From Eledone cirrhosa (lineage: Eukaryota): a stretch of DNA of 64,000 nucleotides. Each line of letters begins with the position of its first letter. The stretch's first letter is position 1. Below, piece by piece: positions 502-55,721 of the stretch. The DNA is taken from assembly GCA_964016885.1 (NCBI GenBank), contig OZ024755.1, forward strand, positions 36,146,001 through 36,210,000. Reading direction: 5' to 3'. The notes below the pieces were generated by a model that had not been told where the DNA came from, made no database searches, and saw nothing but the letters and a program-made list of their open reading frames with translations. The position numbers and the translations under genes are program-made.

Positions 502-509
502 ATCTAAGG

Positions 510-3500
510 TCATTTACCTTTGATTAACTTCCTGTACAGTACCTACTTAGGAATACAATGATCTGTCATTTACCTTTGACTAACTTCCTGTACAGTACCT
601 ACTTAGGAATACAATGATCTGTCATTTACCTTTGACTAACTTCCTGTACAGTACCTACTTAGGAATACAAATATCTGTCATTTACCTTTGACTAACTTCC
701 TGTACAGTACCTACTTAGGAATACAATGATCTGTCATTTACCTTTGACTAACTTCCTGTACAGTACCTACTTAGGAATACAAATATCTGTCATTTACCTT
801 TAACTAATTTCCTGTACAGTACCTACTTAGGAATACAAATATCTGTCATTTACCTTTAACTAATTTCCTGTACAGTACCTACTTAGGAATACAATGATCT
901 GTCATTTACCTTTGACTAACTTCCTGTACAGTACCTACTTAGAAATACAATGATCTGTCATTTACCTTTGACTAACTTCCTGTACAGTACCTACTTAGGA
1001 ATACAATGATCTGTCATTTACCTTTGACTAACTTCCTGTACAGTACCTACTTAGGAATACAATGATCTGTCATTTACCTTTGACTAACTTCCTGTACAGT
1101 ACCTACTTAGGAATACAATGATCTGTCATTTACCTTTGACTAACTTCCTGTACAGTACCTACTTAGGAATACAAATATCTGTCATTTACCTTTGACTAAC
1201 TTCCTGTACAGTACCTACTTAGGAATACAAATATCTGTCATTTACCTTTGACTAACTTGCTGTACAGTACCTACTTAGGAATACAAATATCTGTCATTTA
1301 CCTTTGACTAACTTCCTGTACAGTACCTACTTAGGAATACAATGATCTGTCATTTACCTTTGATTAACTTCCTGTACAGTACCTACTTAGGAATACAATG
1401 ATCTGTCATTTACCTTTGACTAACTTCCTGTACAGTACCTACTTAGGAATACAATGATCTGTCATTTACCTTTGATTAACTTCCTGTACAGTACCTACTT
1501 AGAAATACAATGATCTGTCATTTACCTTTGACTAACTTCCTGTACAGTACCTACTTAGGAATACAATGATCTGTCATTTACCTTTGACTAACTTCCTGTA
1601 CAGTACCTACTTAGGAATACAAATATCTGTCATTTACCTTTGATTAACTTCCTGTACAGTACCTACTTAGGAATACAATGATCTGTCATTTACCTTTGAC
1701 TAACTTCCTGTACAGTACCTACTTAGGAATACAATGATGTCATTTACCTTTGATTAACTTCCTGTACAGTACCTACTTAGGAATACAATGATCTGTCATT
1801 TACCTTTGACTAACTTCCTGTACAGTACCTACTTAGGAATACAATGATCTGTCATTTACCTTTGACTAACTTCCTGTACAGTACCTACTTAGGAATACAA
1901 TGATCTGTCATTTACCTTTGATTAACTTCCTGTACAGTACCTACTTAGGAATACAAATATCTGTCATTTACCTTTGACTAACTTCCTGTACAGTACCTAC
2001 TTAGGAATACAATGATCTGTCATTTACCTTTGATTAACTTCCTGTACAGTACCTACTTAGGAATACAATGATCTGTTCATTCACCTTTGACTAACTTCCT
2101 GTACAGTACCTACTTAGGAATACAATGATCTGTCATTTACCTTTGATTAACTTCCTGTACAGTACCTACTTAGGAATACAAATATCTGTCATTTACCTTT
2201 CACTAACTTCCTGTACAGTACCTACTTAGGAATACAAATATCTGTCATTTACCTTTGACTAACTTGCTGTACAGTACCTACTTAGGAATACAATGATGTC
2301 ATTTACCTTTGATTAACTTCCTGTACAGTACCTACTTAGGAATACAATGATGTCATTTACCTTTGATTAACTTCCTGTACAGTACCTACTTAGGAATACA
2401 ATGATGTCATTTACCTTTGATTAACTTCCTGTACAGTACCTACTTAGGAATACAAATATCTGTCATTTACCTTTGACTAACTTCCTGTACAGTACCTACT
2501 TAGGAATACAAATATCTGTCATTTACCTTTGACTAACTTCCTGTACAGTACCTACTTAGAAATACAATGATCTGTCATTTACCTTTGACTAACTTCCTGT
2601 ACAGTACCTACTTAGGAATACAATGATCTGTCATTTACCTTTGACTAACTTCCTGTACAGTACCTACTTAGGAATACAAATATCTGTCATTTACCTTTGA
2701 TTAACTTCCTGTACAGTACCTACTTAGGAATACAATGATCTGCCATTTACCTTTGACTAACTTCCTGTACAGTACCTACTTAGGAATACAATGATGTCAT
2801 TTACCTTTGATTAACTTCCTGTACAGTACCTACTTAGGAATACAATGATCTGACATTTACCTTTGACTAACTTCCTGTACAGTACCTACTTAGGAATACA
2901 ATCATCTGTCATTTACCTTTGACTAACTTCCTGTACAGTACCTACTTCGGAATACAAATATCTGTCATTTACCTTTGATTAACTTCCTGTACAGTACCTA
3001 CTTAGGAATACAATGATCTGTCATTTACCTTTGACTAACTTCCTGTACAGTACCTACTTAGGAATACAATGATCTGTCATTTACCTTTGACTAACTTCCT
3101 GTACAGTACCTACTTAGGAATACAATGATCTGTCATTTACCTTTGATTAACTTCCTGTACAGTACCTACTTAGGAATACAAATATCTGTCATTTACCTTT
3201 GACTAACTTCCTGTACAGTACCTACTTAGGAATACAATGATCTGTCATTTACCTTTGATTAACTTCCTGTACAGTACCTACTTAGGAATACAATGATCTG
3301 TTCATTCACCTTTGACTAACTTCCTGTACAGTACCTACTTAGGAATACAATGATCTGTCATTTACCTTTGATTAACTTCCTGTACAGTACCTACTTAGGA
3401 ATACAATGATCTGTCATTTACCTTTGACTAACTTGCTGTACAGTACCTACTTAGGAATACAATGATCTGTTCATTTACCTTTGACTAACTTCCTGTACAG

Positions 3501-6500
3501 TACCTACTTAGGAATACAATGATCTGTCATTTACCTTTGATTAACGTCCTGTACAGTACCTACTTAGGAATACAAATATCTGTCATTTACCTTTGACTAA
3601 CTTCCTGTACAGTACCTACTTAGGAATACAATGATCTGTCATTTACCTTTGATTAACTTCCTGTACAGTACCTACTTAGGAATACAATGATCTGTCATTT
3701 ACCTTTGATTAACTTCCTGTACAGTACCTACTTAGGAATACAATGATCTGTCATTTACCTTTGATTAACTTCCTGTACAGTACCTACTTAGGAATACAAT
3801 GATCTGTCATTTACCTTTGACTAACTTGCTGTACAGTACCTACTTAGGAATACAATGATCTGTTCATTTACCTTTGACTAACTTCCTGTACAGTACCTAC
3901 TTAGGAATACAATGATCTGTCATTTACCTTTGATTAACTTCCTGTACAGTACCTACTTAGGAATACAAATATCTGTCATTTACCTTTGACTAACTTCCTG
4001 TACAGTACCTACTTAGGAATACAATGATCTGTCATTTACCTTTGATTAACTTCCTGTACAGTACCTACTTAGGAATACAATGATCTGTCATTTACCTTTG
4101 ATTAACTTCCTGTACAGTACCTACTTAGGAATACAATGATCTGTCATTTACCTTTGATTAACTTCCTGTACAGTACCTACTTAGGAATACAATGATCTGT
4201 TCATTTACCTTTGACTAACTTCCTGTACAGTACCTACTTAGGAATACAATGATCTGTCATTTACCTTTGACTAACTTCCTGTACAGTACCTACTTAGGAA
4301 TACAAATATCTGTCATTTACCTTTGACTAACTTCCTGTACAGTACCTACTTAGGAAGACAAATATCTGTCAATTACCTTTGACTAACTTCCTGTACAGTA
4401 CCTACTTAGGAATACAATGATGTCATTTACCTTTGACTAACTTCCTGTACAGTACCTACTTAGGAATACAATGATCTGTCATTTACCTTTGATTAACTTC
4501 CTGTACAGTACCTACTTAGGAATACAATGATCTGTTCATTCACCTTTGACTAACTTCCTGTACAGTACCTACTTAGGAATACAATGATCTGTCATTTACC
4601 TTTGATTAACTTCCTGTACAGTACCTACTTAGGAATACAATGATCTGTCATTTACCTTTGACTAACTTGCTGTACAGTACCTACTTAGGAATACAATGAT
4701 CTGTTCATTTACCTTTGACTAACTTCCTGTACAGTACCTACTTAGGAATACAATGATCTGTCATTTACCTTTGATTAACGTCCTGTACAGTACCTACTTA
4801 GGAATACAAATATCTGTCATTTACCTTTGACTAACTTCCTGTACAGTACCTACTTAGGAATACAATGATCTGTCATTTACCTTTGATTAACTTCCTGTAC
4901 AGTACCTACTTAGGAATACAATGATCTGTCATTTACCTTTGATTAACTTCCTGTACAGTACCTACTTAGGAATACAATGATCTGTCATTTACCTTTGATT
5001 AACTTCCTGTACAGTACCTACTTAGGAATACAATGATCTGTCATTTACCTTTGACTAACTTGCTGTACAGTACCTACTTAGGAATACAATGATCTGTTCA
5101 TTTACCTTTGACTAACTTCCTGTACAGTACCTACTTAGGAATACAATGATCTGTCATTTACCTTTGATTAACTTCCTGTACAGTACCTACTTAGGAATAC
5201 AAATATCTGTCATTTACCTTTGACTAACTTCCTGTACAGTACCTACTTAGGAATACAATGATCTGTCATTTACCTTTGATTAACTTCCTGTACAGTACCT
5301 ACTTAGGAATACAATGATCTGTCATTTACCTTTGATTAACTTCCTGTACAGTACCTACTTAGGAATACAATGATCTGTCATTTACCTTTGATTAACTTCC
5401 TGTACAGTACCTACTTAGGAATACAATGATCTGTTCATTTACCTTTGACTAACTTCCTGTACAGTACCTACTTAGGAATACAATGATCTGTCATTTACCT
5501 TTGACTAACTTCCTGTACAGTACCTACTTAGGAATACAAATATCTGTCATTTACCTTTGACTAACTTCCTGTACAGTACCTACTTAGGAAGACAAATATC
5601 TGTCAATTACCTTTGACTAACTTCCTGTACAGTACCTACTTAGGAATACAATGATGTCATTTACCTTTGACTAACTTCCTGTACAGTACCTACTTAGGAA
5701 TACAATGATCTGTCATTTACCTTTGATTAACTTCCTGTACAGTACCTACTTAGGAATACAATGATCTGTCATTTACCTTTTACTAACTTCCTGTACAGTA
5801 CCTACTTAGGAATACAATGATCTGTCATTTACCTTTGAGTAACTTCCTGTACAGTACCTACTTAGGAATACAATGATCTGTCATTTACCTTTGATTAACT
5901 TCCTGTACAGTACCTACTTAGGAATACAATGATCTGTTCATTCACCTTTGACTAACTTCCTGTACAGTACCTACTTAGGAATACAATGATCTGTCATTTA
6001 CCTTTGATTAACTTCCTGTACAGTACCTACTTAGGAATACAATGATCTGTCATTTACCTTTGACTAACTTGCTGTACAGTACCTACTTAGGAATACAATG
6101 ATCTGTTCATTTACCTTTGACTAACTTCCTGTACAGTACCTACTTAGGAATACAATGATCTGTCATTTACCTTTGATTAACTTCCTGTACAGTACCTACT
6201 TAGGAATACAATGATCTGTCATTTACCTTTGATTAACTTCCTGTACAGTACCTACTTAGGAATACAATGATCTGTTCATTTACCTTTGACTAACTTCCTG
6301 TACAGTACCTACTTAGGAATACAATGATCTGTCATTTACCTTTGATTAACTTCCTGTACAGTACCTACTTAGGAATACAATGATCTGTCATTTACCTTTG
6401 ACTAACTTCCTGTACAGTACCTACTTAGGAATACAAATATCTGTCATTTACCTTTGATTAACTTCCTGTACAGTACCTACTTAGGAATACAATGATCTGT

Positions 6501-6559
6501 CATTTACCTTTGACTAACTTCCTGTACAGTACCTACTTAGGAATACAATGATCTGTCAT
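510..6559. repeat. 56-bp tandem satellite (about 108 copies) derived from RTE LINE coding sequence
   Basis: Unit atctgtcatttacctttgactaacttcctgtacagtacctacttaggaatacaatg with period 56 (561 to 617). Its reverse complement encodes MTDHCIPK*VLYRKLVKGK. Confidence 0.97.
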
Positions 6560-6735
6560 TCTTATAAAAGGGCCACTCAAGCACAATCTATATTGAATTA
6601 TGAGAGATTCAATACTTTCAAAATGACTTCATTCCGGCTCTTCAACATTACTCATATGAGATTGCCAACTGATATTGAGTATTCGGCGAGGATACTTTTG
6701 ATGAAAGTGATCAAGTATTTTTATATTTCACATGC
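6548..6735 (-). mobile_element. RTE-clade LINE ORF2 remnant running into the satellite
   Basis: The minus strand reads IKILDHFHQKYPRRILNISWQSHMSNVEE.*SHFESIESLIIQYRLCLSGPFIRM, which parallels the 17263-17652 RTE translation (LERFHQQSL...IESMIFRHRLRWSGHMIWM). Confidence 0.8.
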
Positions 6736-14157: not shown

Positions 14158-14470
14158 CATCATCATCATCATCATCTTACGTCCGCTTTTCGCTGCTTGC
14201 AAGGGTGGGATGGGTCCTATTCAGTATAGCATCTCTCCACTTGTCACGGCCCTTCGTCATCATCTCCGTGGTGAGTTTCAGCGATCTGAGGTCCACTCTC
14301 ATCTCACCACCTCCTGCCACGATTTTCGTGGTCTTCCTCTACTACTGGGATTTCTCGGCACTTCTTTACCCAACGGTCATCCTCCATGCGCATCACATGT
14401 CCATACCATCTCAGCCTTCTCTCCCCCACACCACAACTTATCCCTCTTATACACAGTTTCTTTCTCAACT
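14158..14470 (-). mobile_element. RTE LINE 3' fragment
   Basis: Reverse complement of the 7750-8070 family (RRLRWYGHVMRMEDDRWVKKC) with a (GAT)n tail. Confidence 0.85.
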
Positions 14471-15201
14471 CTTCACATGTCCATACCATCTCAGTCTTCT
14501 CTCCCGCACACTACAACTTATCCCTCTTATACCCAGTTTCTCTCTCAACTCGTCACATGTCCATACCATCTCAGTCTTCTCTCTCGCACACTACAACAAC
14601 TTATCCCTCTTATACACAGTTTCTCTCTCAACTCATCACATGTCCATACCATCTCAGTCTTCTCTCCCGCACACTACAACTTATCCCTCTTATACCCAGT
14701 TTCTCTCTCAACTCGTCACATGTCCATACCATCTCAGTCTTCTCTCTCGCACACTACAACAACTTATCCCTCTTATACACAGTTTCTCTCTCAACTCATC
14801 ACATGTCCATACCATCTCAGTCTTCTCTCCCCCACACTACAACTTATCCCTCTTATACCCAGTTTCTCTCTCAACTCGTCACATGTCCATACCATCTCAG
14901 TCTTCTCTCTCGCACACTACAACTTATCCCTCTTATACACAGTTTCTCTCTCAACTCATCACATGTCCATACCATCTCAGTCTACTCTCACACACACTAC
15001 AACTTATCCCTCTTATACCCAGTTTCTCTCTCAACTCATCACATGTCCATACCATCTCAGTCATCTCTCTCGCACACTACAACTTATCCCTCTTATACCC
15101 AGTTTCTCTCTCAACTCATCACATGTCCATACCATCTCAGTCATCTCTCTCGCACACTACAACTTATCCCTCTTATACACAGTTTCTCTTTCAACTCGTC
15201 A
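14391..15201. repeat. 80/83-bp tandem array (about 10 copies) from RTE ORF2
   Basis: Unit cacatgtccataccatctcagtcttctctc..cacactacaacttatccctcttatac.cagtttctctctcaact, equal to the LINE segment ELRKKL..GISC.V.ERRLRWYGHV. Confidence 0.92.
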
Positions 15202-27963: not shown

Positions 27964-29511
27964 TTAACCCCTTAGCATTTAAACTGACCATATCCGGCCA
28001 GAATTCTCTCACCACCAGCTGTAACCAGCCACACATACCAACATTAAGGTATTGTTCTCAAAATAAATAACATCAAAATCTCATAGCTTTGATATTATGT
28101 GACATAATTATGTGAGGTAAAGCCTTTACTGTGAAAATACAATAGTATATATAATGTAAATGTTATGTGAGATATTATGTGAGGTAAAGCCTTTACTGTG
28201 AAAATACAATAGTATATATAGAGTAATGTAAATGTTATGTGAGATATTATGTGAGGTAAAGCCTTTACTGTGAAAATACAATAGTATATATAGAGTAATG
28301 TAAATGTTATGTGAGATATTATGTGAGGTAAAACCTTTACTGTGAAAATACAATAGTATATATAGAGTAATGTAAATGTTATGTGAGATATTATGTGAGG
28401 TAAAGCCTTTACTGTGAAAATACAATAGTATATATAGAGTAATGTGAGATATTATGTGAGGTAAAGCCTTTACTGTGAAAATACAATAGTATATATAATG
28501 TAAATGTTATGTGAGATATTATGTGAGGTAAAGCCTTTACTGTGAAAATACAATAGTATATATAGAGTAATGTAAATGTTATGTGAGATATTATGTGAGG
28601 TAAAGCCTTTACTGTGAAAATACAATAGTATATATAGAGTAATGTAAATGTTATGTGAGATATTATGTGAGGTAAAACCTTTACTGTGAAAATACAATAG
28701 TATATATAGAGTAATGTAAATGTTATGTGAGATATTATGTGAGGTAAAGCCTTTACTGTGAAAATACAATAGTATATATAGAGTAATGTGAGATATTATG
28801 TGAGGTAAAGCCTTTACTGTGAAAATACAATAGTATATATAATGTAAATGTTATGTGAGATATTATGTGAGGTAAAGCCTTTACTGTGAAAATACAATAG
28901 TATATATAGAGTAATGTAAATGTTATGTGAGATATTATGTGAGGTAAAGCCTTTACTGTGAAAATACAATAGTATATATAGAGTAATGTAAATGTTATGT
29001 GAGATATTATGTGAGGTAAAACCTTTACTGTGAAAATACAATAGTATATATAGAGTAATGTAAATGTTATGTGAGATATTATGTGAGGTAAAGCCTTTAC
29101 TGTGAAAATACTATAGTATATATATTGAGTAATGTAAATGTTATGTGAGATATTATGTGTGGTAAAGCCTTTACTGTGAAAATACAATAGTAAATATAGA
29201 ATAATGTAAATGTTATGTGAGATAATTGTGAAGTAAAGCCTTTACTGTGAAAATACAATAGTAAATATAGAGTAATGTAAATGTTATGTGAGATATTATG
29301 TGTGGTAAAGCCTTTACTGTGACAATACAATAGTATATATAGAGTAATGTAAATGTTATGAGAGATATTATGTGAGGTAAAGCCTTTACTGTGAAAATAC
29401 AATAGTATATATAGAGTAATGTAAATGGTATGTGAGATATTATGTGTGGTAAAGCCTTTACTGTGAAAATACAATAGTATATATAGAGTAATGTAAATGG
29501 TAAAGGGTTAA
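27964..29511 (+). mobile_element. piggyBac-like MITE expanded by an internal 72-bp tandem array
   Basis: TTAA-ccccttagcattta ... taaatggtaaaggg-TTAA. About 20 copies of ttatgtgagatattatgtgaggtaaagcctttactgtgaaaatacaatagtatatatagagtaatgtaaatg, with a 344-bp higher-order period. Confidence 0.9.
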
Positions 29512-35056: not shown

Positions 35057-35725
35057 GATCGGATTAGTAATGGAGGAGGATCCTCCAAGAGCATAGGGTC
35101 TAGAATAATGACAGAATAGAAGTTTAGGGAACTGCTTCCTCTGTTGACAAAGAATGAAAGGCCTGTTATATGATGCCTGTGTGAGATGTGCGATGGTGCA
35201 TGGTTGTGAGACATGGGCAGCAACTGTGGAGGATATGCAACGGCTGGAGTGAAATGAAGCAAGCATGGTCCACTGGATGTGTAATGTCAATGTGCGTGAA
35301 CGACCAAGCATAGATGTGTTGGGAGAGAAACTGTGTAGAAGAGGGATAAACTGTAGTGTGTGGGAGAGAAGACTGAGATGGTATCGACATGTGATGAGTT
35401 GAGAGAGAAACTGTGCAGAAGAGGGATAAACTGTAGTGTGTGGGAGAGAAGACTGAGATGGTATCGACATGTGATGAGTTGAGAGAGAAACTGTGTAGAA
35501 GAGGGATAAACTGTAGTGTGTGGGAGAGAAGACTGAGATGGTATCGACATGTGATGAGTTGAGAGAGAAACTGTGCAGAAGAGGGATAAACTGTAGTGTG
35601 TGGGAGAGAAGACTGAGATGGTATAGACATGTGATGTACATGGAGGATGATCGCTGTGTGAAGAAGTGCCAAGAAATCCCAGTGGAAGGAAGACATAGTT
35701 GAAGAAGACCACGAAAAACATGGGG
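35057..35725 (+). mobile_element. RTE LINE fragment with four tandem copies of an internal 80-bp segment
   Basis: Homologous to 7490-7920; period 80 at 35323, 35403, 35483 and 35563. Confidence 0.88.
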
Positions 35726-36108: not shown

Positions 36109-37744
36109 TACTAAATATACTGAACTTTATCTCTTGTCACTGTTGCAACTTCCATTCCTTACTAAATATACTGAACTTTATCCCTTGTCACTGTTGCAAC
36201 TTCCATTCCTTACTAAATATACTGAACTTTATCCCTTGTCACTGTTGCAACTTCCATTCCTTACTAAATATACTGAACTTTATCTCTTGCCATTGTTGCA
36301 ACTTCCATTCCTTACTAAATATACTGAACTTTATCCCTTGTCACTGTTGCAACTTCCATTCCTTACTAAATATACTGAACTTTATCTCTTGCCATTGTTG
36401 CAACTTCCATTCCTTACTAAATATACTGAACTTTATCCCTTGTCACTGTTGCAACTTCCATTCCTTACTAAATATACTGAACTTTATCTCTTGTCACCGT
36501 TGCAACTTCCATTCCTTACTAAATATACTGAACTTTATCTCTTGTCACTGTTGCTACTTCCATTCCTTACTAAATATACTGAACTTTATCTCTTGTCACT
36601 GTTGCAACTTCCATTCCTTACTAAATATACTGAACTTTATCCCTTGTCACTGTTGCAACTTCCATTCCTTACTAAATATACTGAACTTTATCTCTTGTCA
36701 CCGTTGCAACTTCCATTCCTTACTAAATATACTGAACTTTATCTCTTGTCACTGTTGCTACTTCCATTCCTTACTAAATATACTGAACTTTATCTCTTGC
36801 CACTGTTGTTACTTCCATTCCTTACTAAATATAATGAACTTTATCCCTTGTCACTGTTGCAACTTCCATTCCTTACTAAATATACTGAACTTTATCTCTT
36901 GTCACTGTTGCAACTTCCATTCCTTACTAAATATACTGAACTTTATCCCTTGTCACTGTTGCAACTTCCATTCCTTACTAAATATACTGAACTTTATCCC
37001 TTGTCACTGTTGCAACTTCCATTCCTTACTAAATATACTGAACTTTATCTCTTGTCACTGTTGCAACTTCCATTCCTTACTAAATATACTGAACTTTATC
37101 TCTTGTCACTGTTGCAACTTCCATTCCTTACTAAATATACTGAACTTTATCCCTTGTCACTGTTGCAACTTCCATTCCTTACTAAATATACTGAACTTTA
37201 TCCCTTGTCACTGTTACAACTTCCATTCCTTACTAAATATACTGAACTTTATCTCTTGTCACTGTTGCAACTTCCATTCCTTACTAAATATACTGAACTT
37301 TATCTCTTGTCACTGTTGCAACTTCCATTCCTTACTAAATATACTGAACTTTATCCCTTGTCACTGTTGCAACTTCCATTCCTTACTAAATATACTGAAC
37401 TTTATCCCTTGTCACTGTTGCAACTTCCATTCCTTACTAAATATACTGAACTTTATCTCTTGTCACTGTTGCAACTTCCATTCCTTACTAAATATACTGA
37501 ACTTTATCCCTTGCCACTGTTGCAACTTCCATTCCTTACTAAATATACTGAACTTTATCTCTTGTCACTGTTGTTACTTCCATTCCTTACTAAATATACT
37601 GAACTTTATCTCTTGTCACTGTTGTTACTTCCATTCCTTACTAAATATACTGAACTTTATCTCTTGTCACTGCTGCAACTTCCATTCCTTACTAAATATA
37701 CTGAACTTTATCTCTTGTCACTGTTGCTACTTCCATTCCTTTAC
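36109..37744. repeat. 51-bp minisatellite (about 32 copies)
   Basis: Unit actaaatatactgaactttatcycttgtcactgttgcaacttccattcctt. Confidence 0.97.
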
Positions 37745-39518: not shown

Positions 39519-42500
39519 CATTATATACACCCAAAACCATCAGTTCCCATCATATACACCCAAAACCATCAGTTCCCATTTTATACACCCAAAACTATCA
39601 GTTCCCATTATATACACCCAAAACCATCAGTTCCCATTATATACACCCAAAACTATCAGTTCCCATTATATACACCCAAAACTATCAGTTCCCATTATAT
39701 ACACCCAAAACCATCAGTTCCCATTATATACACCCAAAACTATCAGTTCCCATTATATACACCCAAAACTATCAGTTCCCATTATATACACCCAAAACCA
39801 TCAGTTCCCATCATATACACCCAAAACCATCAGTTCCCATTATATACACCCAAAACTATCAGTTCCCATTATATACACCCAAAACCATCAGTTCCCATCA
39901 TATACACCCAAAACTATCAGTTCTCATCATATACACCCAAAACTATCAGTTCCCATTATATACACCCAAAACTATCAGTTCCCATTATATACACCCAAAA
40001 CTATCAGTTCCCATTATATACACCCAAAACTATCAGTTCCCATTATATACACCCAAAACTATCAGTTCCCATTATATACACCCAAAACTATCAGTTCTCA
40101 TCATATACACCCAAAACTATCAGTTCCCATTATATACACCCAAAACTATCAGTTCTCATCATATACACCCAAAACTATCAGTTCTCATCATATACACCCA
40201 AAACTATCAGTTCCCATCATATACACCCAAAACTATCAGTTCCCATTATATACACCCAAAACTATCAGTTCCCATTATATACACCCAAAACCATCAGTTC
40301 CCATTATATACACCCAAAACCATCAGTTCTCATCATATACACCCAAAACTATCAGTTCCCATTATATACACCCAAAACTATCAGTTCCCATTATATACAC
40401 CCAAAACTATCAGTTCCCATTATATACACCCAAAACCATCAGTTCTCATCATATACACCCAAAACTATCAGTTCCCATTATATACACCCAAAACCATCAG
40501 TTCTCATCATATACACCCAAAACTATCAGTTCCCATTATATACACCCAAAACTATCAGTTCCCATTATATACACCCAAAACCATCAGTTCCCATTATATA
40601 CACCCAAAACCATCAGTTCTCATCATATACACCCAAAACTATCAGTTCTCATTATATACACCCAAAACTATCAGTTCTCATTATATACACCCAAAACTAT
40701 CAGTTCCCATTATATACACCCAAAACTATCAGTTCCCATTATATACACCCAAAACCATCAGTTCCCATTATATACACCCAAAACTATCAGTTCCCATTAT
40801 ATACACCCAAAACCATCAGTTCCCATTATATACACCCAAAACTATCAGTTCTCATTATATACACCCAAAACTATCAGTTCCCATTATATACACCCAAAAC
40901 TATCAGTTCCCATTATATACACCCAAAACTATCAGTTCCCATTATATACACCCAAAACTATCAGTTCCCATTATATACACCCAAAACCATCAGTTCCCAT
41001 TATATACACCCAAAACCATCAGTTCCCATTATATACACACAAAACCATCAGTTCCCATTATATACACCCAAAACCATCAGTTCCCATTATATACACCCAA
41101 AACTATCAGTTCCCATTATATACACCCAAAACTATCAGTTCCCATTATATACACCCAAAACTATCAGTTCTCATTATATACACCCAAAACTATCAGTTCC
41201 CATTATATACACCCAAGACTATCAGTTCCCATTATATACACCCAAAACTATCAGTTCCCATTATATACACTCAAAACCATCAGTTCTCATCATATACACC
41301 CAAAACTATCAGTTCCCATTATATACACCCAAAACTATCAGTTCTCATTATATACACCCAAAACTATCAGTTCTCATTATATACACCCAAAACTATCAGT
41401 TCCCATTATATACACCCAAAACTATCAGTTCCCATTATATACACCCAAAACTATCAGTTCTCATTATATACACCCAAAACTATCAGTTCCCATTATATAC
41501 ACCCAAAACTATCAGTTCTCATTATATACACCCAAGACTATCAGTTCCCATTATATACACCCAAAACTATCAGTTCTCATTATATACACCCAAAACTATC
41601 AGTTCCCATTATATACACCCAAAACTATCAGTTCTCATTATATACACCCAAAACTATCAGTTCCCATTATATACACCCAAAACTATCAGTTCTCATTATA
41701 TACACCCAAAACTATCAGTTCTCATTATATACACCCAAAACTATCAGTTCCCATTATATACACCCAAAACTATCAGTTCTCATTATATACACCCAAGACT
41801 ATCAGTTCCCATTATATACACCCAAAACTATCAGTTCTCATTATATACACCCAAAACTATCAGTTCTCATTATATACACCCAAAACTATCAGTTCCCATT
41901 AGATACACCCAAAACTATCAGTTCTCATTATATACACCCAAAACTATCAGTTCTCATTATATACACCCAAAACTATCAGTTCCCATTATATACACCCAAA
42001 ACTATCAGTTCTCATTATATACACCCAAAACTATCAGTTCCCATTATATACACCCAAGACTATCAGTTCCCATTATATACACACAAAACCATCAGTTCTC
42101 ATTATATACACCCAAAACTATCAGTTCCCATTATATACACCCAAAACTATCAGTTCCCATTATATACACCCAAAACCATCAGTTCCCATTATATACACCC
42201 AAGACTATCAGTTCTCATTATATACACCCAAAACTATCAGTTCCCATTATATACACCCAACACTATCAGTTCCCATTATATACACCCAAAACTATCAGTT
42301 CCCATTATATACACCCAAGACTATCAGTTCCCATTATATACACCCAAAACCATCAGTTCCCATTATATACACCCAAAACTATCAGTTCCCATTATATACA
42401 CCCAAAACCATCAGTTCCCATTATATACACCCAAAACTATCAGTTCCCATTATATACACCCAAAACCATCAGTTCCCATTATATACACCCAACACTATCA

Positions 42501-42696
42501 GTTCCCATTATATACACCCAAAACTATCAGTTCCCATTATATACACCCAAGACTATCAGTTCCCATTATATACACCCAAAACTATCAGTTCCCATTATAT
42601 ACACCCAAGACTATCAGTTCCCATTATATACACCCAAAACCATCAGTTCCCATTATATACACCCAAAACTATCAGTTCCCATTATATACACCCAAA
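39519..42696. repeat. 29-bp minisatellite (about 110 copies)
   Basis: Unit cattatatacacccaaaactatcagttcc; one more degenerate unit follows the SINE at about 42888-42912. Confidence 0.97.
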
Positions 42697-43069: not shown

Positions 43070-44371
43070 ATTCAGTGTGGAAATACCAAAACAGACAAAG
43101 ATTTGGTGGTGGACATGCAAAAGTCTCTCTTGTAAAATTGGGGTATTTAAAGGATGGGGATGTTGTGTATGACTGCGGCATCAAACCACAGACTACGCAG
43201 CACCTCCTGATATGCCCCCTGCTAGAACACCCCTGCACAGCATTGGACTTGGCAGAGTTTAATGAGATAGGACAGTAATGTGTTCAGCTGTGGTGGAACC
43301 ACATCTGGCCAACCTTTGTAACTGACACTCTTGTGGACACAAGGACAGTAATGTGTTCAGCTGTGGTGGAACCACATCTGGCCAACCTTTGTAACTGACA
43401 CTCTTGTGGACACAAGGACAGCAATGTGTTCAGCTGTGGCAGAACCACATCTGGCCAACCTTTGTAACTGACACTCTTGTGGACACAAGGACAGCAATGT
43501 GTTCAGCTGTGGTAGAACCACATCTAGCCAACCTTTGTAACTGACACTCTTGTGGACACAAGAACAGCAATGTGTTCAGCTGTGGTAGAACCACATCTAG
43601 CCAAGCTTTGTAACTGACACTCTTGTGGACACAAGGACAGCAATGTGTTCAGCTGTGGTAGAACCACATCTAGCCAAGCTTTGTAACTGACACTCTTGTG
43701 GACACAAGGACAGCAATGTGTTCAGCTGTGGTAGAACCACATCTAGCCAAGCTTTGTAACTGACACTCTTGTGGACACAAGGACAGCAATGTGTTCAGCT
43801 GTGGTAGAACCACATCTAGCCAAGCTCTGTAACTGACACTCTTGTGGACACAAGGACAACAATGTGTTCAGTTGTGACAGAACCACATCTAGCCAAGCTT
43901 TGTAACTGACACTCTTGTTGACACAAGGACAGCAATGTGTTCAGCTGTGGTAGAACCACATCTAGCCAAGCTCTGTAACTGACACTCTTGTGGACACAAG
44001 GACAACAATGTGTTCAGTTGTGACAGAACCACATCTAGCCAAGCTTTGTAACTGACACTCTTGTTGACACAAGAACAGCAATGTGTTCAGCTGTGGTAGA
44101 ACCACATCTAGCCAAGCTCTGTAACTGACACTCTTGTGGACACAAGGACAACAATGTGTTCAGTTGTGACAGAACCACATCTAGCCAAGCTTTGTAACTG
44201 ACACTCTTGTTGACACAAGGACAACAATGTGTTCAGATGTGGTAGAACCACATCTAGCCAAGCTCTGTAACTGACACTCTTGTGGACACAAGGACAGCAA
44301 TGTGTTCAGCTGTGGTAGAACCACATCTAGCCAAGCTCTGTAACTGACACTCTTGTGAACACGAGAAGAAG
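43070..44371 (+). mobile_element. I-group (Ingi/Vingi-like) LINE 3' end with its last 73 bp amplified about 15 times
   Basis: VWKYQNRQRFGGG..KLGY..DCGIKPQTTQHLLICP (decayed CCHC knuckle), then period-73 repeats from 43269, ending in acacgagaagaag. Confidence 0.75.
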
Positions 44372-46829: not shown

Positions 46830-47235
46830 AAGTATTGTTCTCAAAATAAATAATATCAAAATCTCATAGTTTCAATATTATGTGAGATGAAGTCTTTACT
46901 GCGAAAATACAATAGTATATATAGAGTAATGTAAATATGTGAAATAATTATGTGAGGTAAAGCCTTTACCATGAACATATAGTAGTGTATATAGAGTAAT
47001 GTATATGTTATGCGAGATATTATGTGAGGTAAAGCCTTTACTGTGAAAATACAATAGTATATATAGAGTAATGTAAATGTTATGTGAGATATTACGTGAG
47101 GTAAAGCCTTTAGTGTGAAAATACAATAGTATATATAGAGTAATGTAAATGTTATGTGAGATATTATGTGAAGTAAAGCCTTTACTGTGAAAATATAATA
47201 CTATATATAGAGTAATGTAAATGTTAAAGAGTTAA
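46830..47235 (+). mobile_element. piggyBac-like MITE 3' part with about 5 copies of the 72-bp segment
   Basis: Same unit as 27964-29511; ends taaatgttaaagag-ttaa. Confidence 0.8.
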
Positions 47236-49697: not shown

Positions 49698-49801
49698 TTT
49701 TAAATAAACCTGAATCAACTGAATATGGCCTCCAATCTTATATATATATATATATATATATCTCCAGGGAGTGTAACACGGAGTTACTGTAGTATTATTA
49801 T

Positions 49802-49841
<40 letters not shown>

Positions 49842-49910
49842 TATGAAGAGAGAAGAAACATTTAGATATAATTAGTAATAAAATGTATCATACCTAAACT
49901 GTTCCTAAAT

Positions 49911-49998
49911 TCCTCGACTACGTAGTTTCGTGGCATAAACAAAAACAATATATCAAAGATATAGAGTCCTTGCGAGGTCTGCCAACTTATCAAGAGGA
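49911..49998 (-). ncRNA. type I hammerhead ribozyme, first of 8 minus-strand copies (others start at 50502, 51093, 51684, 52275, 52866, 53457, 54038)
   Basis: Reverse complement of the motif at 54584-54671. Confidence 0.78.
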
Positions 49999-52900
49999 TA
50001 CCTCATTTTACTAGTCTCAAGAACGCGTCTACACGACGTGAGAAAGAATCCCAAAAGGCGGAGGGGGAGATAGTCACGCGATATAACGGTCGAGAAACAG
50101 AGCTAAGCCTCTTATAACCACGAAGAAAATACCACGGAGGCGGAGGGGGTATTCATATCGAGGCCGTAGAAGAGGTAGTGAAGAAGGCGAGAAGTATGAG
50201 TAATGGAAGCTTTCCAGTTGTCCCCACACTTCAAAGATTGCTCGACCAGAGGGAGTTATTAATATATTTAAAAACACACAGATACATGCGGACACACACA
50301 TATATACATGAATGCATCCGCACCCAACTGTGAGTTAAGGGTGCCAACTTCACCGATGTTGCTCAATGAATGACTGGGACAGACCAATTCAGTTTGAACC
50401 AGACTGAACCAGTATCAGAGTTAAAAATACATTATGAAGAGAGAAGAAACATTTAGATATAATTAGTAATAAAATGTATCATACCTAAACTGTTCCTAAA
50501 TTCCTCGACTACGTAGTTTCGTGGCATAAACAAAAACAATATATCAAAGATATAGAGTCCTTGCGAGGTCTGCCAACTTATCAAGAGGATACCTCATTTT
50601 ACTAGTCTCAAGAACGCGTCTACACGACGTGAGAAAGAATCCCAAAAGGCGGAGGGGGAGATAGTCACGCGATATAACGGTCGAGAAACAGAGCTAAGCC
50701 TCTTATAACCACGAAGAAAATACCACGGAGGCGGAGGGGGTATTCATATCGAGGCCGTAGAAGAGGTAGTGAAGAAGGCGAGAAGTATGAGTAATGGAAG
50801 CTTTCCAGTTGTCCCCACACTTCAAAGATTGCTCGACCAGAGGGAGTTATTAATATATTTAAAAACACACAGATACATGCGGACACACACATATATACAT
50901 GAATGCATCCGCACCCAACTGTGAGTTAAGGGTGCCAACTTCACCGATGTTGCTCAATGAATGACTGGGACAGACCAATTCAGTTTGAACCAGACTGAAC
51001 CAGTATCAGAGTTAAAAATACATTATGAAGAGAGAAGAAACATTTAGATATAATTAGTAATAAAATGTATCATACCTAAACTGTTCCTAAATTCCTCGAC
51101 TACGTAGTTTCGTGGCATAAACAAAAACAATATATCAAAGATATAGAGTCCTTGCGAGGTCTGCCAACTTATCAAGAGGATACCTCATTTTACTAGTCTC
51201 AAGAACGCGTCTACACGACGTGAGAAAGAATCCCAAAAGGCGGAGGGGGAGATAGTCACGCGATATAACGGTCGAGAAACAGAGCTAAGCCTCTTATAAC
51301 CACGAAGAAAATACCACGGAGGCGGAGGGGGTATTCATATCGAGGCCGTAGAAGAGGTAGTGAAGAAGGCGAGAAGTATGAGTAATGGAAGCTTTCCAGT
51401 TGTCCCCACACTTCAAAGATTGCTCGACCAGAGGGAGTTATTAATATATTTAAAAACACACAGATACATGCGGACACACACATATATACATGAATGCATC
51501 CGCACCCAACTGTGAGTTAAGGGTGCCAACTTCACCGATGTTGCTCAATGAATGACTGGGACAGACCAATTCAGTTTGAACCAGACTGAACCAGTATCAG
51601 AGTTAAAAATACATTATGAAGAGAGAAGAAACATTTAGATATAATTAGTAATAAAATGTATCATACCTAAACTGTTCCTAAATTCCTCGACTACGTAGTT
51701 TCGTGGCATAAACAAAAACAATATATCAAAGATATAGAGTCCTTGCGAGGTCTGCCAACTTATCAAGAGGATACCTCATTTTACTAGTCTCAAGAACGCG
51801 TCTACACGACGTGAGAAAGAATCCCAAAAGGCGGAGGGGGAGATAGTCACGCGATATAACGGTCGAGAAACAGAGCTAAGCCTCTTATAACCACGAAGAA
51901 AATACCACGGAGGCGGAGGGGGTATTCATATCGAGGCCGTAGAAGAGGTAGTGAAGAAGGCGAGAAGTATGAGTAATGGAAGCTTTCCAGTTGTCCCCAC
52001 ACTTCAAAGATTGCTCGACCAGAGGGAGTTATTAATATATTTAAAAACACACAGATACATGCGGACACACACATATATACATGAATGCATCCGCACCCAA
52101 CTGTGAGTTAAGGGTGCCAACTTCACCGATGTTGCTCAATGAATGACTGGGACAGACCAATTCAGTTTGAACCAGACTGAACCAGTATCAGAGTTAAAAA
52201 TACATTATGAAGAGAGAAGAAACATTTAGATATAATTAGTAATAAAATGTATCATACCTAAACTGTTCCTAAATTCCTCGACTACGTAGTTTCGTGGCAT
52301 AAACAAAAACAATATATCAAAGATATAGAGTCCTTGCGAGGTCTGCCAACTTATCAAGAGGATACCTCATTTTACTAGTCTCAAGAACGCGTCTACACGA
52401 CGTGAGAAAGAATCCCAAAAGGCGGAGGGGGAGATAGTCACGCGATATAACGGTCGAGAAACAGAGCTAAGCCTCTTATAACCACGAAGAAAATACCACG
52501 GAGGCGGAGGGGGTATTCATATCGAGGCCGTAGAAGAGGTAGTGAAGAAGGCGAGAAGTATGAGTAATGGAAGCTTTCCAGTTGTCCCCACACTTCAAAG
52601 ATTGCTCGACCAGAGGGAGTTATTAATATATTTAAAAACACACAGATACATGCGGACACACACATATATACATGAATGCATCCGCACCCAACTGTGAGTT
52701 AAGGGTGCCAACTTCACCGATGTTGCTCAATGAATGACTGGGACAGACCAATTCAGTTTGAACCAGACTGAACCAGTATCAGAGTTAAAAATACATTATG
52801 AAGAGAGAAGAAACATTTAGATATAATTAGTAATAAAATGTATCATACCTAAACTGTTCCTAAATTCCTCGACTACGTAGTTTCGTGGCATAAACAAAAA

Positions 52901-54583
52901 CAATATATCAAAGATATAGAGTCCTTGCGAGGTCTGCCAACTTATCAAGAGGATACCTCATTTTACTAGTCTCAAGAACGCGTCTACACGACGTGAGAAA
53001 GAATCCCAAAAGGCGGAGGGGGAGATAGTCACGCGATATAACGGTCGAGAAACAGAGCTAAGCCTCTTATAACCACGAAGAAAATACCACGGAGGCGGAG
53101 GGGGTATTCATATCGAGGCCGTAGAAGAGGTAGTGAAGAAGGCGAGAAGTATGAGTAATGGAAGCTTTCCAGTTGTCCCCACACTTCAAAGATTGCTCGA
53201 CCAGAGGGAGTTATTAATATATTTAAAAACACACAGATACATGCGGACACACACATATATACATGAATGCATCCGCACCCAACTGTGAGTTAAGGGTGCC
53301 AACTTCACCGATGTTGCTCAATGAATGACTGGGACAGACCAATTCAGTTTGAACCAGACTGAACCAGTATCAGAGTTAAAAATACATTATGAAGAGAGAA
53401 GAAACATTTAGATATAATTAGTAATAAAATGTATCATACCTAAACTGTTCCTAAATTCCTCGACTACGTAGTTTCGTGGCATAAACAAAAACAATATATC
53501 AAAGATATAGAGTCCTTGCGAGGTCTGCCAACTTATCAAGAGGATACCTCATTTTACTAGTCTCAAGAACGCGTCTACACGACGTGAGAAAGAATCCCAA
53601 AAGGCGGAGGGGGAGATAGTCACGCGATATAACGGTCGAGAAACAGAGCTAAGCCTCTTATAACCACGAAGAAAATACCACGGAGGCGGAGGGGGTATTC
53701 ATATCGAGGCCGTAGAAGAGGTAGTGAAGAAGGCGAGAAGTATGAGTAATGGAAGCTTTCCAGTTGTCCCCACACTTCAAAGATTGCTCGACCAGAGGGA
53801 GTTATTAATATATTTAAAAACACACAGATACATGCGGACACACACATATATACATGAATGCATCCGCACCCAACTGTGAGTTAAGGGTGCCAACTTCACC
53901 GATGTTGCTCAATGAATGACTGGGACAGACCAATTCAGTTTGAACCAGTATCAGAGTTAAAAATACATTATGAAGAGAGAAGAAACATTTAGATATAATT
54001 AGTAATAAAATGTATCATACCTAAACTGTTCCTAAATTCCTCGACTACGTAGTTTCGTGGCATAAACAAAAACAATATATCAAAGATATAGAGTCCTTGC
54101 GAGGTCTGCCAACTTATCAAGAGGATACCTCATTTTACTAGTCTCAAGAACGCGTCTACACGACGTGAGAAAGAATCCCAAAAGGCGGAGGGGGAGATAG
54201 TCACGCGATATAACGGTCGAGAAACAGAGCTAAGCCTCTTATAACCACGAAGAAAATACCACGGATGCATTCATGTATATATGTGTGTGTCCGCATGTAT
54301 CTGTGTGTTTTTAAATATATTAATAACTCCCTCTGGTCGAGCAATCTTTGAAGTGTGGGGACAACTGGAAAGCTTCCATTACTCATACTTCTCGCCTTCT
54401 TCACTACCTCTTCTACGGCCTCGATATGAATACCCCCTCCGCCTCCGTGGTATTTTCTTCGTGGTTATAAGAGGCTTAGCTCTGTTTCTCGACCGTTATA
54501 TCGCGTGACTATCTCCCCCTCCGCCTTTTGGGATTCTTTCTCACGTCGTGTAGACGCGTTCTTGAGACTAGTAAAATGAGGTA

Positions 54584-54671
54584 TCCTCTTGATAAGTTGG
54601 CAGACCTCGCAAGGACTCTATATCTTTGATATATTGTTTTTGTTTATGCCACGAAACTACGTAGTCGAGGA
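54584..54671 (+). ncRNA. type I hammerhead ribozyme (U3-A8 variant); predicted cleavage after C54666
   Basis: tcctc TTGATAA gttggca [44 nt] tgccac GAAAC tacgta GTC gagga: 5-bp stem I, stem II and palindromic stem III actacgtagt. Confidence 0.8.
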
Positions 54672-55174
54672 ATTTAGGAACAGTTTAGGTATGATACATT
54701 TTATTACTAATTATATCTAAATGTTTCTTCTCTCTTCATAATGTATTTTTAACTCTGATACTGGTTCAGTCTGGTTCAAACTGAATTGGTCTGTCCCAGT
54801 CATTCATTGAGCAACATCGGTGAAGTTGGCACCCTTAACTCACAGTTGGGTGCGGATGCATTCATGTATATATGTGTGTGTCCGCATGTATCTGTGTGTT
54901 TTTAAATATATTAATAACTCCCTCTGGTCGAGCAATCTTTGAAGTGTGGGGACAACTGGAAAGCTTCCATTACTCATACTTCTCGCCTTCTTCACTACCT
55001 CTTCTACGGCCTCGATATGAATACCCCCTCCGCCTCCGTGGTATTTTCTTCGTGGTTATAAGAGGCTTAGCTCTGTTTCTCGACCGTTATATCGCGTGAC
55101 TATCTCCCCCTCCGCCTTTTGGGATTCTTTCTCACGTCGTGTAGACGCGTTCTTGAGACTAGTAAAATGAGGTA

Positions 55175-55262
55175 TCCTCTTGATAAGTTGGCAGACCTCG
55201 CAAGGACTCTATATCTTTGATATATTGTTTTTGTTTATGCCACGAAACTACGTAGTCGAGGA
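55175..55262 (+). ncRNA. type I hammerhead ribozyme, second plus-strand copy
   Basis: Identical to 54584-54671, shifted by 591 bp. Confidence 0.8.
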
Positions 55263-55493
55263 ATTTAGGAACAGTTTAGGTATGATACATTTTATTACTA
55301 ATTATATCTAAATGTTTCTTCTCTCTTCATAATGTATTTTTAACTCTGATACTGGTTCAGTCTGGTTCAAACTGAATTGGTCTGTCCCAGTCATTCATTG
55401 AGCAACATCGGTGAAGTTGGCACCCTTAACTCACAGTTGGGTGCGGATGCATTCATGTATATATGTGTGTGTCCGCATGTATCTGTGTGTTTT

Positions 55494-55534
<41 letters not shown>

Positions 55535-55568
55535 ATAATAATACTACTACAGTAACTCCGTGTTACAC

Positions 55569-55638
55569 TTGTGTTCTCATCAGATAAAATAAGGTAACAT
55601 GATATCATGTTACCTTATTTCATCTGATGAGAACACAA
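55569..55638. repeat. 70-bp near-perfect loopless palindrome
   Basis: ttgtgttctcatcagataaaataaggtaacatgat|atcatgttaccttatttcatctgatgagaacacaa, with one mismatch. Confidence 0.92.
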
Positions 55639-55721
55639 TTTTTGTCCCAGGCTGATTTTTTATTCAAAATGCACATAATAAAATATATGGAACTCTTTTA
55701 ACCATCTTTTAATTTCTTCTT

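What the first reader, a model, noticed from the sequence alone, without database searches (positions are those of the whole stretch)
49839..55502. 591-bp tandem repeat carrying a variant hammerhead ribozyme in each unit: candidate new retrozyme / circular-RNA family
Seen: ten copies of tcctc-TTGATAA-gttggca[44 nt]tgccac-GAAAC-tacgta-GTC-gagga, one per 591-bp unit, in units that are nearly identical and retain their CpGs. Known: hammerhead cores are CUGANGA...GAAA...NUH. Metazoan non-LTR retrozymes (newt satellite 2, Dolichopoda pDo500, Schistosoma Sm-alpha) are tandem repeats with one type I HHR per unit, whose transcripts self-cleave to monomers, and circular forms are reported for retrozymes. 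Inferred: this is a young non-autonomous ribozyme-processed retroelement giving a 591-nt RNA, which is long for this class. A search for the canonical CUGANGA core would miss it.
Basis: partly seen in the sequence, partly recalled or inferred. Interest (0 to 1): 0.92.

Follow-up and report, generated by a model that had tools for sequence, protein, structure and literature searches.

The report
Hammerhead retrozyme inserted as back-to-back arms
This is one insertion of a very abundant, protein-free jumping repeat that carries a predicted self-cutting RNA motif and sits in TA microsatellites, often as two back-to-back arms that end one at each of two fixed sites, which suggests it is copied, likely from an RNA circle, by a Penelope-type retrotransposon enzyme working from both DNA strands.

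Summary
The ten motifs and the 591-bp unit are real, but this is not a plain tandem repeat: 7.5 units lie on the minus strand and 2.1 on the plus strand, head to head, inside (TA)n. The genome holds 7,755 exact copies of an 18-base part of the motif. Outer ends fall at two fixed unit positions 165 bases apart (A, B); 57 of 57 inverted pairs with two standard ends are A+B, never A+A or B+B. Coding Penelope-like elements of this genome show the same pattern and the same U3-A8 core. Between subfamilies 80% alike, 1 of 44 hammerhead positions differs against 80 of 547 elsewhere, and that change keeps stem I paired. U3-A8 cores and units up to 972 bp are already in print, so neither is new. Cleavage, transcription and the circle are not shown; no partner element was identified. 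Verdict: new family of animal non-LTR retrozymes, with clear Penelope-type insertion rules. This scan noted the same layout before in other families and genomes.

The parts
49836..54268 (-). Left arm, 7.5 units; read on the hammerhead strand it runs from unit position 448 out to position 162 (site A), then (TA)n. Unit position 1 = window 54585
54262..55502 (+). Right arm, 2.1 units; from unit position 269 out to position 327 (site B), then (TA)n
54262..54265 (.). Head-to-head junction of the two arms, 4-base overlap (CGGA) shared by both
54584..54671 (+). Type I hammerhead motif: stem I 54584-88/54667-71, core UUGAUAA 54589-95, stem II 54596-602/54647-52 with one bulge, extended hairpin 54609-43, GAAA 54653-56, predicted cut after 54666
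55175..55262 (+). Second plus-strand hammerhead copy
49911..54125 (-). Eight minus-strand hammerhead copies (49911-49998, 50502-50589, 51093-51180, 51684-51771, 52275-52362, 52866-52953, 53457-53544, 54038-54125)
54656..54665 (+). 10-base palindrome forming helix III; weak as a monomer hairpin, -12.9 kcal/mol as a duplex between two copies
54578..54608 (+). Predicted 5-bp pseudoknot between GAGGU upstream of stem I (54578-82) and ACCUC in loop II (54604-08); perfect in 101 of 114 copies, no covariation
54709..54746 (+). Conserved block ending at site A (unit 125-162), 80 nt after the predicted cut; likely first reverse-transcription start
54875..54911 (+). Conserved block ending at site B (unit 291-327); likely second reverse-transcription start
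55015..55084 (+). Conserved block (3 of 70 positions differ between subfamilies) with a GC-box-like and a TATA-like motif; candidate internal promoter, untested, motif names recalled
49805..49838 (.). Left (TA)n target tract
55497..55531 (.). Right (TA)n target tract
49770..49838 (.). Left flank, present again in inverted form at 55497-55569; not part of the element

Best explanation
This is one head-to-head insertion of a non-coding 591-base repeat family with thousands of dispersed copies in (TA)n tracts, likely a retrozyme mobilised in trans by a Penelope-like (Neptune/Nematis-type) reverse transcriptase-endonuclease. Shown: copy number, target, two fixed outer ends, the A+B rule, arms longer than one unit, conservation of the hammerhead. 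Inferred: a tandem copy is transcribed from an internal promoter; neighbouring hammerheads pair through the palindromic helix III and cut out a 591-nt monomer that is ligated to a circle, in which the ribozyme is predicted to be folded off. The enzyme, probably a dimer, nicks both strands of (TA)n and primes two cDNAs on the same RNA sequence, one at site A and one at site B; each runs round the circle for a variable distance, and the two are joined by 0-5 bases of overlap. My odds for the steps: Penelope-type mobilisation 0.85, functional ribozyme 0.75, circular template 0.6, family A as partner 0.3.
For: Dispersed and abundant: 7,755 and 7,158 exact matches for the two halves of the motif, controls 0. 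125 of 131 A/B ends are followed by at least 4 TA units. 159 of 170 arms in 103 loci end at A (84) or B (75); 57 of 57 standard inverted pairs are A+B. From junction lists alone, 23 of 23 outward pairs in the first 99.5 Mb of C1 are A+B, p=1.2e-7 against 0.5 (partly the same loci). In 40 loci taken by position: 21 inverted A+B, 7 single A, 7 single B, 5 other. Coding family A (938-aa frame with RT and GIY-YIG matches; CX4CxxC before the nuclease) has a U3-A8 hammerhead, two ends 62 nt apart and one of each in 7 of 8 inverted pairs. Published Penelope features match: tail at one end only, inverted 5'-truncated copy (PMC8557442), two start sites, both strands cut and extended, predicted dimer (PMC11167929). 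Hammerhead: 1 of 44 positions differ between subfamilies against 80 of 547 (p=0.010), the one change being U-A to U.G to C-G in stem I. Circular fold z=-6.1 on the hammerhead strand, -1.0 on the other. 106 of 170 arms exceed one unit, both arms do in 16 of 57 pairs. Ten variants private to a locus are shared by all its units, five across both arms, which needs a monomer-to-multimer step or conversion. 5' ends do not pile up at the cut site (3 seen, 3.2 expected), so cut linear monomers are not the usual template.
Against: No cleavage or RNA data. Covariation does not exceed column shuffles (score 0.084 against 0.084; one pair with a double change). In the isolated motif helix III has pair probability 0.03-0.04 and the active fold is 1.6 kcal/mol above the minimum. 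Locus L119 carries a stem I mismatch in all 3 units of both arms and still inserted. In the anole element, ribozyme mutants did not affect insertion in vitro (PMC11167929), and 8 of 9 Xenopus dimers did not cleave. No sequence similarity between the unit and six sampled coding families. 121 unit-specific variants stand against 10 shared ones. Loci were chosen by an exact 18-mer or by best BLAST score, so the conservation test is partly biased; the unselected 5' half shows 0 of 19 differences.
Confidence: 0.78

Rival explanations
1. Same Penelope-type paired priming, but on long linear, uncut multimer transcripts; the hammerhead is kept for another step or is weakly active, and no circle is needed.
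For: No 5' pile-up at the cut site; weak monomer fold; L119 stem I mismatch; uncut RNA was the main substrate for the anole enzyme in vitro (PMC11167929).
Against: Copying linear multimers cannot spread a new variant to all units of a locus (10 cases) or keep producing arms of up to 7.5 units when most loci hold 1-3 without repeated template jumps or conversion; hammerhead conserved across subfamilies.
Confidence: 0.25
2. The unit is the terminal repeat (pLTR) of a coding Penelope-like element not yet sampled, and the arrays are its 5'-truncated insertions.
For: Penelope insertions are mostly 5'-truncated and retrozymes resemble pLTRs; only 150 of 10,595 GIY-YIG candidates were scored and 45 loci plus 20 of family F examined.
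Against: Units follow each other directly with no frame between them; no open frame over about 90 codons in the unit; tblastn with 5 Penelope proteins hit 6 of 120 loci searched, none joined to an arm; the one suggestive case, L140, is chance (only 1 of 20 family F loci carries the unit).
Confidence: 0.08
3. The inverted arm arises by fold-back self-priming rather than by a second target-primed cDNA, as proposed for rotifer Penelope elements.
For: PMC3846280 reads junction palindromes this way; 11 of 57 pairs have 5' ends within 40 nt.
Against: 7.8 such pairs are expected by chance; 5' positions and arm lengths are unrelated (rho -0.13); fold-back does not explain why the far end is always the other fixed site.
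Confidence: 0.07
4. Plain satellite DNA expanded by unequal crossing-over, or a long-read fold-back artefact.
For: Near-perfect unit identity and an inverted duplicate of the flank in this locus.
Against: Thousands of short dispersed loci with the same two ends; the same layout in an 80%-identical subfamily whose copies have diverged; arms end at different sites, which a read fold-back would not give.
Confidence: 0.02

Closest known systems
Metazoan non-LTR retrozymes (PMC7229834, parts 2-3 of 6 and passages read; bioRxiv 10.64898/2026.07.22.740005, parts 1-3 of 5 read, supplements not seen)
   Same: Non-coding tandem units, one type I hammerhead per unit, GC under 50%, short palindromic helix III, strongly folded predicted circle, co-occurrence with Penelope-like elements; length inside 51-972 bp.
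   Different: U3-A8 core, 44-nt extended helix II and a predicted pseudoknot instead of the usual loop contacts; head-to-head arms, (TA)n targeting and two fixed ends are not described in the parts read ('inverted' and 'microsatellite' occur 0 times in PMC7229834). RNA and cleavage not shown here.
Endonuclease-bearing Penelope-like elements, Neptune/Nematis type (PMC8557442 and PMC3846280, passages; PMC11167929, parts 1-2 of 4 and passages)
   Same: Partial tandems, inverted 5'-truncated arm, tail at one end only, AT-rich or microsatellite target, hammerhead upstream of the 3' ends.
   Different: No reading frame; tail of 165 nt against 30-40 nt in print and about 60 nt in coding families here; both arms can be multimers.
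Hammerheads of Penelope terminal repeats, including the Schistosoma U3-A8 variant (PMC4209133, parts 1-2 of 4 read)
   Same: U3-A8 pair, 5-bp helix I, long helix II with a bulge, G10.1-C11.1, palindromic helix III predicted to act as a dimer.
   Different: Has a 3-bp helix III rather than none; sits in a stand-alone repeat.
L1 twin priming (recalled, no call)
   Same: Two target-primed cDNAs give a head-to-head insertion joined by short overlap.
   Different: In L1 the second primer lands at variable internal places; here both starts are fixed and paired.

Membership tests
Type I hammerhead ribozyme | Three helices around the conserved core with cut after NUH | tested here: met
   93.9% of cells paired against 31-59% for slid controls; GUC cut triplet
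Type I hammerhead ribozyme | Watson-Crick pair at core positions 3 and 8 | tested here: met
   U3-A8 in 7,158 copies, C3-G8 form in 0; known variant
Type I hammerhead ribozyme | Covariation of stems | tested here: inconclusive
   One compensated pair in stem I (UA 15, UG 4, CG 11 of 32) and one-sided changes in the helix II extension; overall score not above shuffles
Type I hammerhead ribozyme | Match to an Rfam hammerhead model | tested here: not met
   No hit; not a defining feature for variant cores with long inserts
Type I hammerhead ribozyme | Self-cleavage | not testable with these tools
   Needs in vitro assay
Non-LTR retrozyme | Tandem units each with a type I hammerhead, at least two consecutive | tested here: met
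Non-LTR retrozyme | No protein, no LTR arrangement | tested here: met
   Six-frame translation; tblastn
Non-LTR retrozyme | Dispersed multicopy family | tested here: met
Non-LTR retrozyme | Expressed as unit-length linear and circular RNA | not testable with these tools
   Only contigs of unrecorded kind were available; a unit-length cyclic contig also follows from tandem DNA
Autonomous Penelope-like element | RT plus GIY-YIG reading frame | tested here: not met
Penelope-mobilised non-autonomous element | Partial tandems, head-to-head inverted arm, tail at one end, microsatellite target | tested here: met
Penelope-mobilised non-autonomous element | Sequence shared with the terminal repeat of a coding partner | tested here: inconclusive
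   No blastn hit against six sampled families; only loose likeness to family A (U3-A8 core, first end 81 against 80 nt after the cut); most families unsampled

The most novel reading that the evidence does not exclude
A 591-nt ribozyme-made RNA circle carries two dedicated reverse-transcription start sites 165 nt apart that an asymmetric Penelope enzyme dimer must use one each, rolling round one circle in two directions of the target at once; and the youngest variant exists as a free, homogeneous circle that turns up almost unchanged in runs labelled as many different organisms, that is, a retrozyme that spreads between hosts like a viroid. The first half is well supported by the A+B rule; the second rests on single unbranched unit-length contigs in runs of unrecorded kind and could equally be trace DNA or cross-contamination.
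Probability: 0.12. Interest if true: 0.85.

Novelty: new member of a known kind. Interest (0 to 1): 0.5.

Why it matters
How Penelope-like elements make their tandem, inverted and 'tail' structures is stated to be open (PMC8557442), and that animal retrozymes ride on them has been argued from co-occurrence and Xenopus sequence similarity. This family gives a large, young, countable record: two start sites used strictly one per arm, multimeric arms copied from one monomer sequence, and no sign of cut linear templates. That makes a specific model (dimer, two primers, circular template) testable with a 591-nt RNA and the existing in vitro system. It also shows that thousands of hammerheads per genome escape both Rfam and canonical-core searches.

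Tried and rejected
Rfam: no hammerhead hit; the microRNA hits are AT-repeat noise. Sequencing runs: no RNA holder listed, which says nothing about expression. 8 of the 20 holder runs were laid, all contigs: they cannot show ends, strand or a circle. Partner search: Pfam PF26215 is not in the library, so PF01541 was used; no similarity to families A-E or F. L121 looked like a chimera of a retrozyme arm and family A, but is a complete small family A twin insertion beside a retrozyme arm. L140 looked like a coding element ending in the unit; rejected. The inverted flanks are not terminal repeats of the element: absent from other loci, part of another repeat. 5' pile-up at the cut site: none. Fold-back junctions: not above chance. 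The bacterial promoter scan found nothing and does not apply to an animal. One search was swamped by TA matches and repeated; the loop II extension indices were off by one and redone. A look-up of earlier findings by sequence gave nothing. Literature searches found no paper on cephalopod retrozymes or on paired priming in Penelope elements; the library lacks most subscription journals and I could not check Repbase or Dfam, where the family may be listed. The words octopus and cephalopod in those searches came from my recalled impression of the repeat landscape and were not tested.
Full report
Observation. Eight copies are on the minus strand and two on the plus strand. Read on the hammerhead strand, both arms run outward from a junction at 54262-54265 (4-base overlap) and end in (TA)n: the left arm (7.5 units) at unit position 162, the right arm (2.1 units) at position 327, with position 1 = window 54585. 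Rfam finds no hammerhead.

Genome-wide family. The unit has 574 candidate places, of which 40 were scored, giving many 99-100% matches on many contigs. Exact patterns give whole counts: 7,755 for an 18-mer of the 3' half, 7,158 for the 5' half with the U3-A8 core, 0 for the same stretch with the canonical core; reversed controls were 0. I examined 103 distinct loci: best matches to the window unit, the first 40 loci by position on C1 and best matches to an old copy (five dropped as duplicates). Of 170 arms, 84 end at position 155-167 (site A), 75 at 315-335 (site B) and 11 elsewhere; 106 exceed one unit, 30 exceed two, 9 exceed three. 125 of 131 A or B ends run into (TA)n. Exact junction counts are 2,703 for A and 1,138 for B, the latter pattern fitting only younger forms.

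The pairing rule. Of 65 adjacent opposite-strand pairs, 57 are A+B, 7 have one non-standard end and 1 is tail to tail; none is A+A or B+B. From the coordinate lists alone, 23 of 23 outward-facing pairs in the first 99.5 Mb of C1 are A+B; no inverted A+A among 100 A ends and no B+B among 100 B ends (overlaps partly with the loci above). In the 40 loci taken by position, 21 are inverted A+B, 7 single A, 7 single B, 5 other. The inner ends of the two arms are unrelated (11 of 57 within 40 nt, 7.8 expected) and most often overlap by 0-5 bases. They do not gather at the predicted cut (3 of 170 at positions 78-88, 3.2 expected).

Penelope connection. The genome is rich in GIY-YIG elements (10,595 candidates, 150 scored). 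Five sampled frames match RT, four of them also GIY-YIG (three RT scores lie just under the Pfam cut-off); four carry CX4CxxC before the nuclease, the mark given for Neptune and Nematis (PMC8557442, passages). Family A has a hammerhead with a U3-A8 core, ends in (TA)n at two sites 81 and 143 nt after its predicted cut, and uses one of each in 7 of 8 inverted pairs, two of them ending five bases early. Families D and F show two ends as well. In print, Penelope insertions form partial tandems with an inverted 5'-truncated copy and a 30-40 bp tail often at one end only, and the anole enzyme cuts and extends both strands, starts at two internal sites bounding the tail and is predicted to be a dimer (PMC11167929). 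The 165 nt between A and B is therefore best read as a long tail. No coding element sharing sequence with the unit was found.

The ribozyme. Comparing 28 old loci (about 80% identical to the window unit) with 33 young ones gives 81 fixed differences: 1 of 44 in the core and stems, 80 of 547 elsewhere (p=0.010), 7 of 44 in loop II, 1 of 38 before site A, 3 of 37 before site B, 3 of 70 in a GC-box/TATA-like block. The one stem change is compensated (U-A 15, U.G 4, C-G 11 of 32 rows). Against this, the covariation score equals that of shuffles, the alignment was anchored on core letters, and sampling began from an exact 18-mer; the unselected 5' half shows 0 of 19 differences. Helix III is a 10-base palindrome, unstable alone (probability 0.03-0.04) but -12.9 kcal/mol as a duplex, which predicts dimer action as described for animal hammerheads. 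A 5-bp pseudoknot between the sequence upstream of stem I and loop II is possible in 101 of 114 copies, with no covariation; such contacts are common (PMC3088659, passages). The unit as a circle folds at -173 kcal/mol against -134 +/- 6 for 40 shuffles, the other strand at z=-1.0, and stems I and III are not formed in the circle. U3-A8 is known in nature and stated to be active.

Template. In 53 loci, 10 variants seen in no other locus are shared by all units of their locus, 5 across both arms, against 121 unit-specific ones. Both arms were thus copied from one monomer sequence in those cases, which needs a circle, repeated jumps on one molecule, or later conversion. One such variant (L119) breaks stem I, which shows that an intact stem is not needed in the copy that inserted.

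Other data sets. Twenty runs from 16 studies under 17 organism labels hold part of the unit, 13 with at least half its words. Eight were laid. X1 and X8 give single contigs of 621 and 620 bases that close on themselves after 591, X9 has the same joint plus a piece of an older variant, X2 gives one 577-base contig at depth 105 with one difference and no 95-99% variants; X12 ends at site B followed by (TA)n and X16 holds a slightly older variant. Tandem DNA gives the same joint, and the kind of these runs is not on record, so this is a lead and not evidence of a circle or of transfer.

Verdict. A new family of animal non-LTR retrozymes, likely Penelope-mobilised. The core variant and the length are in print. 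The value lies in the strict two-site pairing rule and the multimeric arms, which I did not find described in the searches listed under Tried and rejected. Earlier notes of this scan report the same layout for other families; I read them after forming my view and do not count them as support. Interest 0.5.

Noticed in passing
window 49770-49838 and 55497-55569: The left flank (about 36 bases plus TAT and TA repeats, 17 TA units on both sides) is repeated in inverted form at the right border. The motif is a fragment of another (TA)n-abutting repeat, 41 exact copies, single-sided elsewhere. Inverted flank matches occur in 4 of 85 loci against 0.6% across loci.
   Followed up: partly
window 55569-55640: 72-base near-perfect hairpin containing CTGATGAG, member of an abundant family (972 candidates), often itself in inverted pairs; possibly another Penelope-type end.
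   Followed up: partly
L073, L077, L047, L052: Coding Penelope-like family D has a hammerhead-like motif with U3-A8 and GCAA in place of GAAA, and two 3' ends used one per arm.
   Followed up: partly
L140:2332-4343 and L178-L197: A further young Penelope-like family F (98% identity among the best copies, 2,507 candidates) with a canonical-core hammerhead-like motif and two ends about 60 nt apart; eight copies on C12 lie about 60 kb apart, suggesting a large tandem duplication.
   Followed up: partly
L119:1309-2677: Stem I mismatch private to this locus in all three units of both arms.
   Followed up: partly
runs X1, X2, X8, X9, X12, X16 laid on window 54330-54920: Near-identical unit in runs with different organism labels, in two cases as one unbranched unit-length cyclic contig. 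Trace DNA, contamination, RNA or transfer cannot be told apart.
   Followed up: partly
L192:3060-3140: A much older fragment resembling unit positions 163-245, suggesting subfamilies older than those sampled.
   Followed up: no
window 509-6560, 28095-29499, 36109-37741, 39519-42696, 43269-44362: Several long minisatellites (periods 56, 72, 51, 29, 73) with 93-96% identity; the 72-bp unit recurs at 46875-47226 and an 80-bp unit at 14391-15201 recurs inverted at 35313-35636.
   Followed up: no
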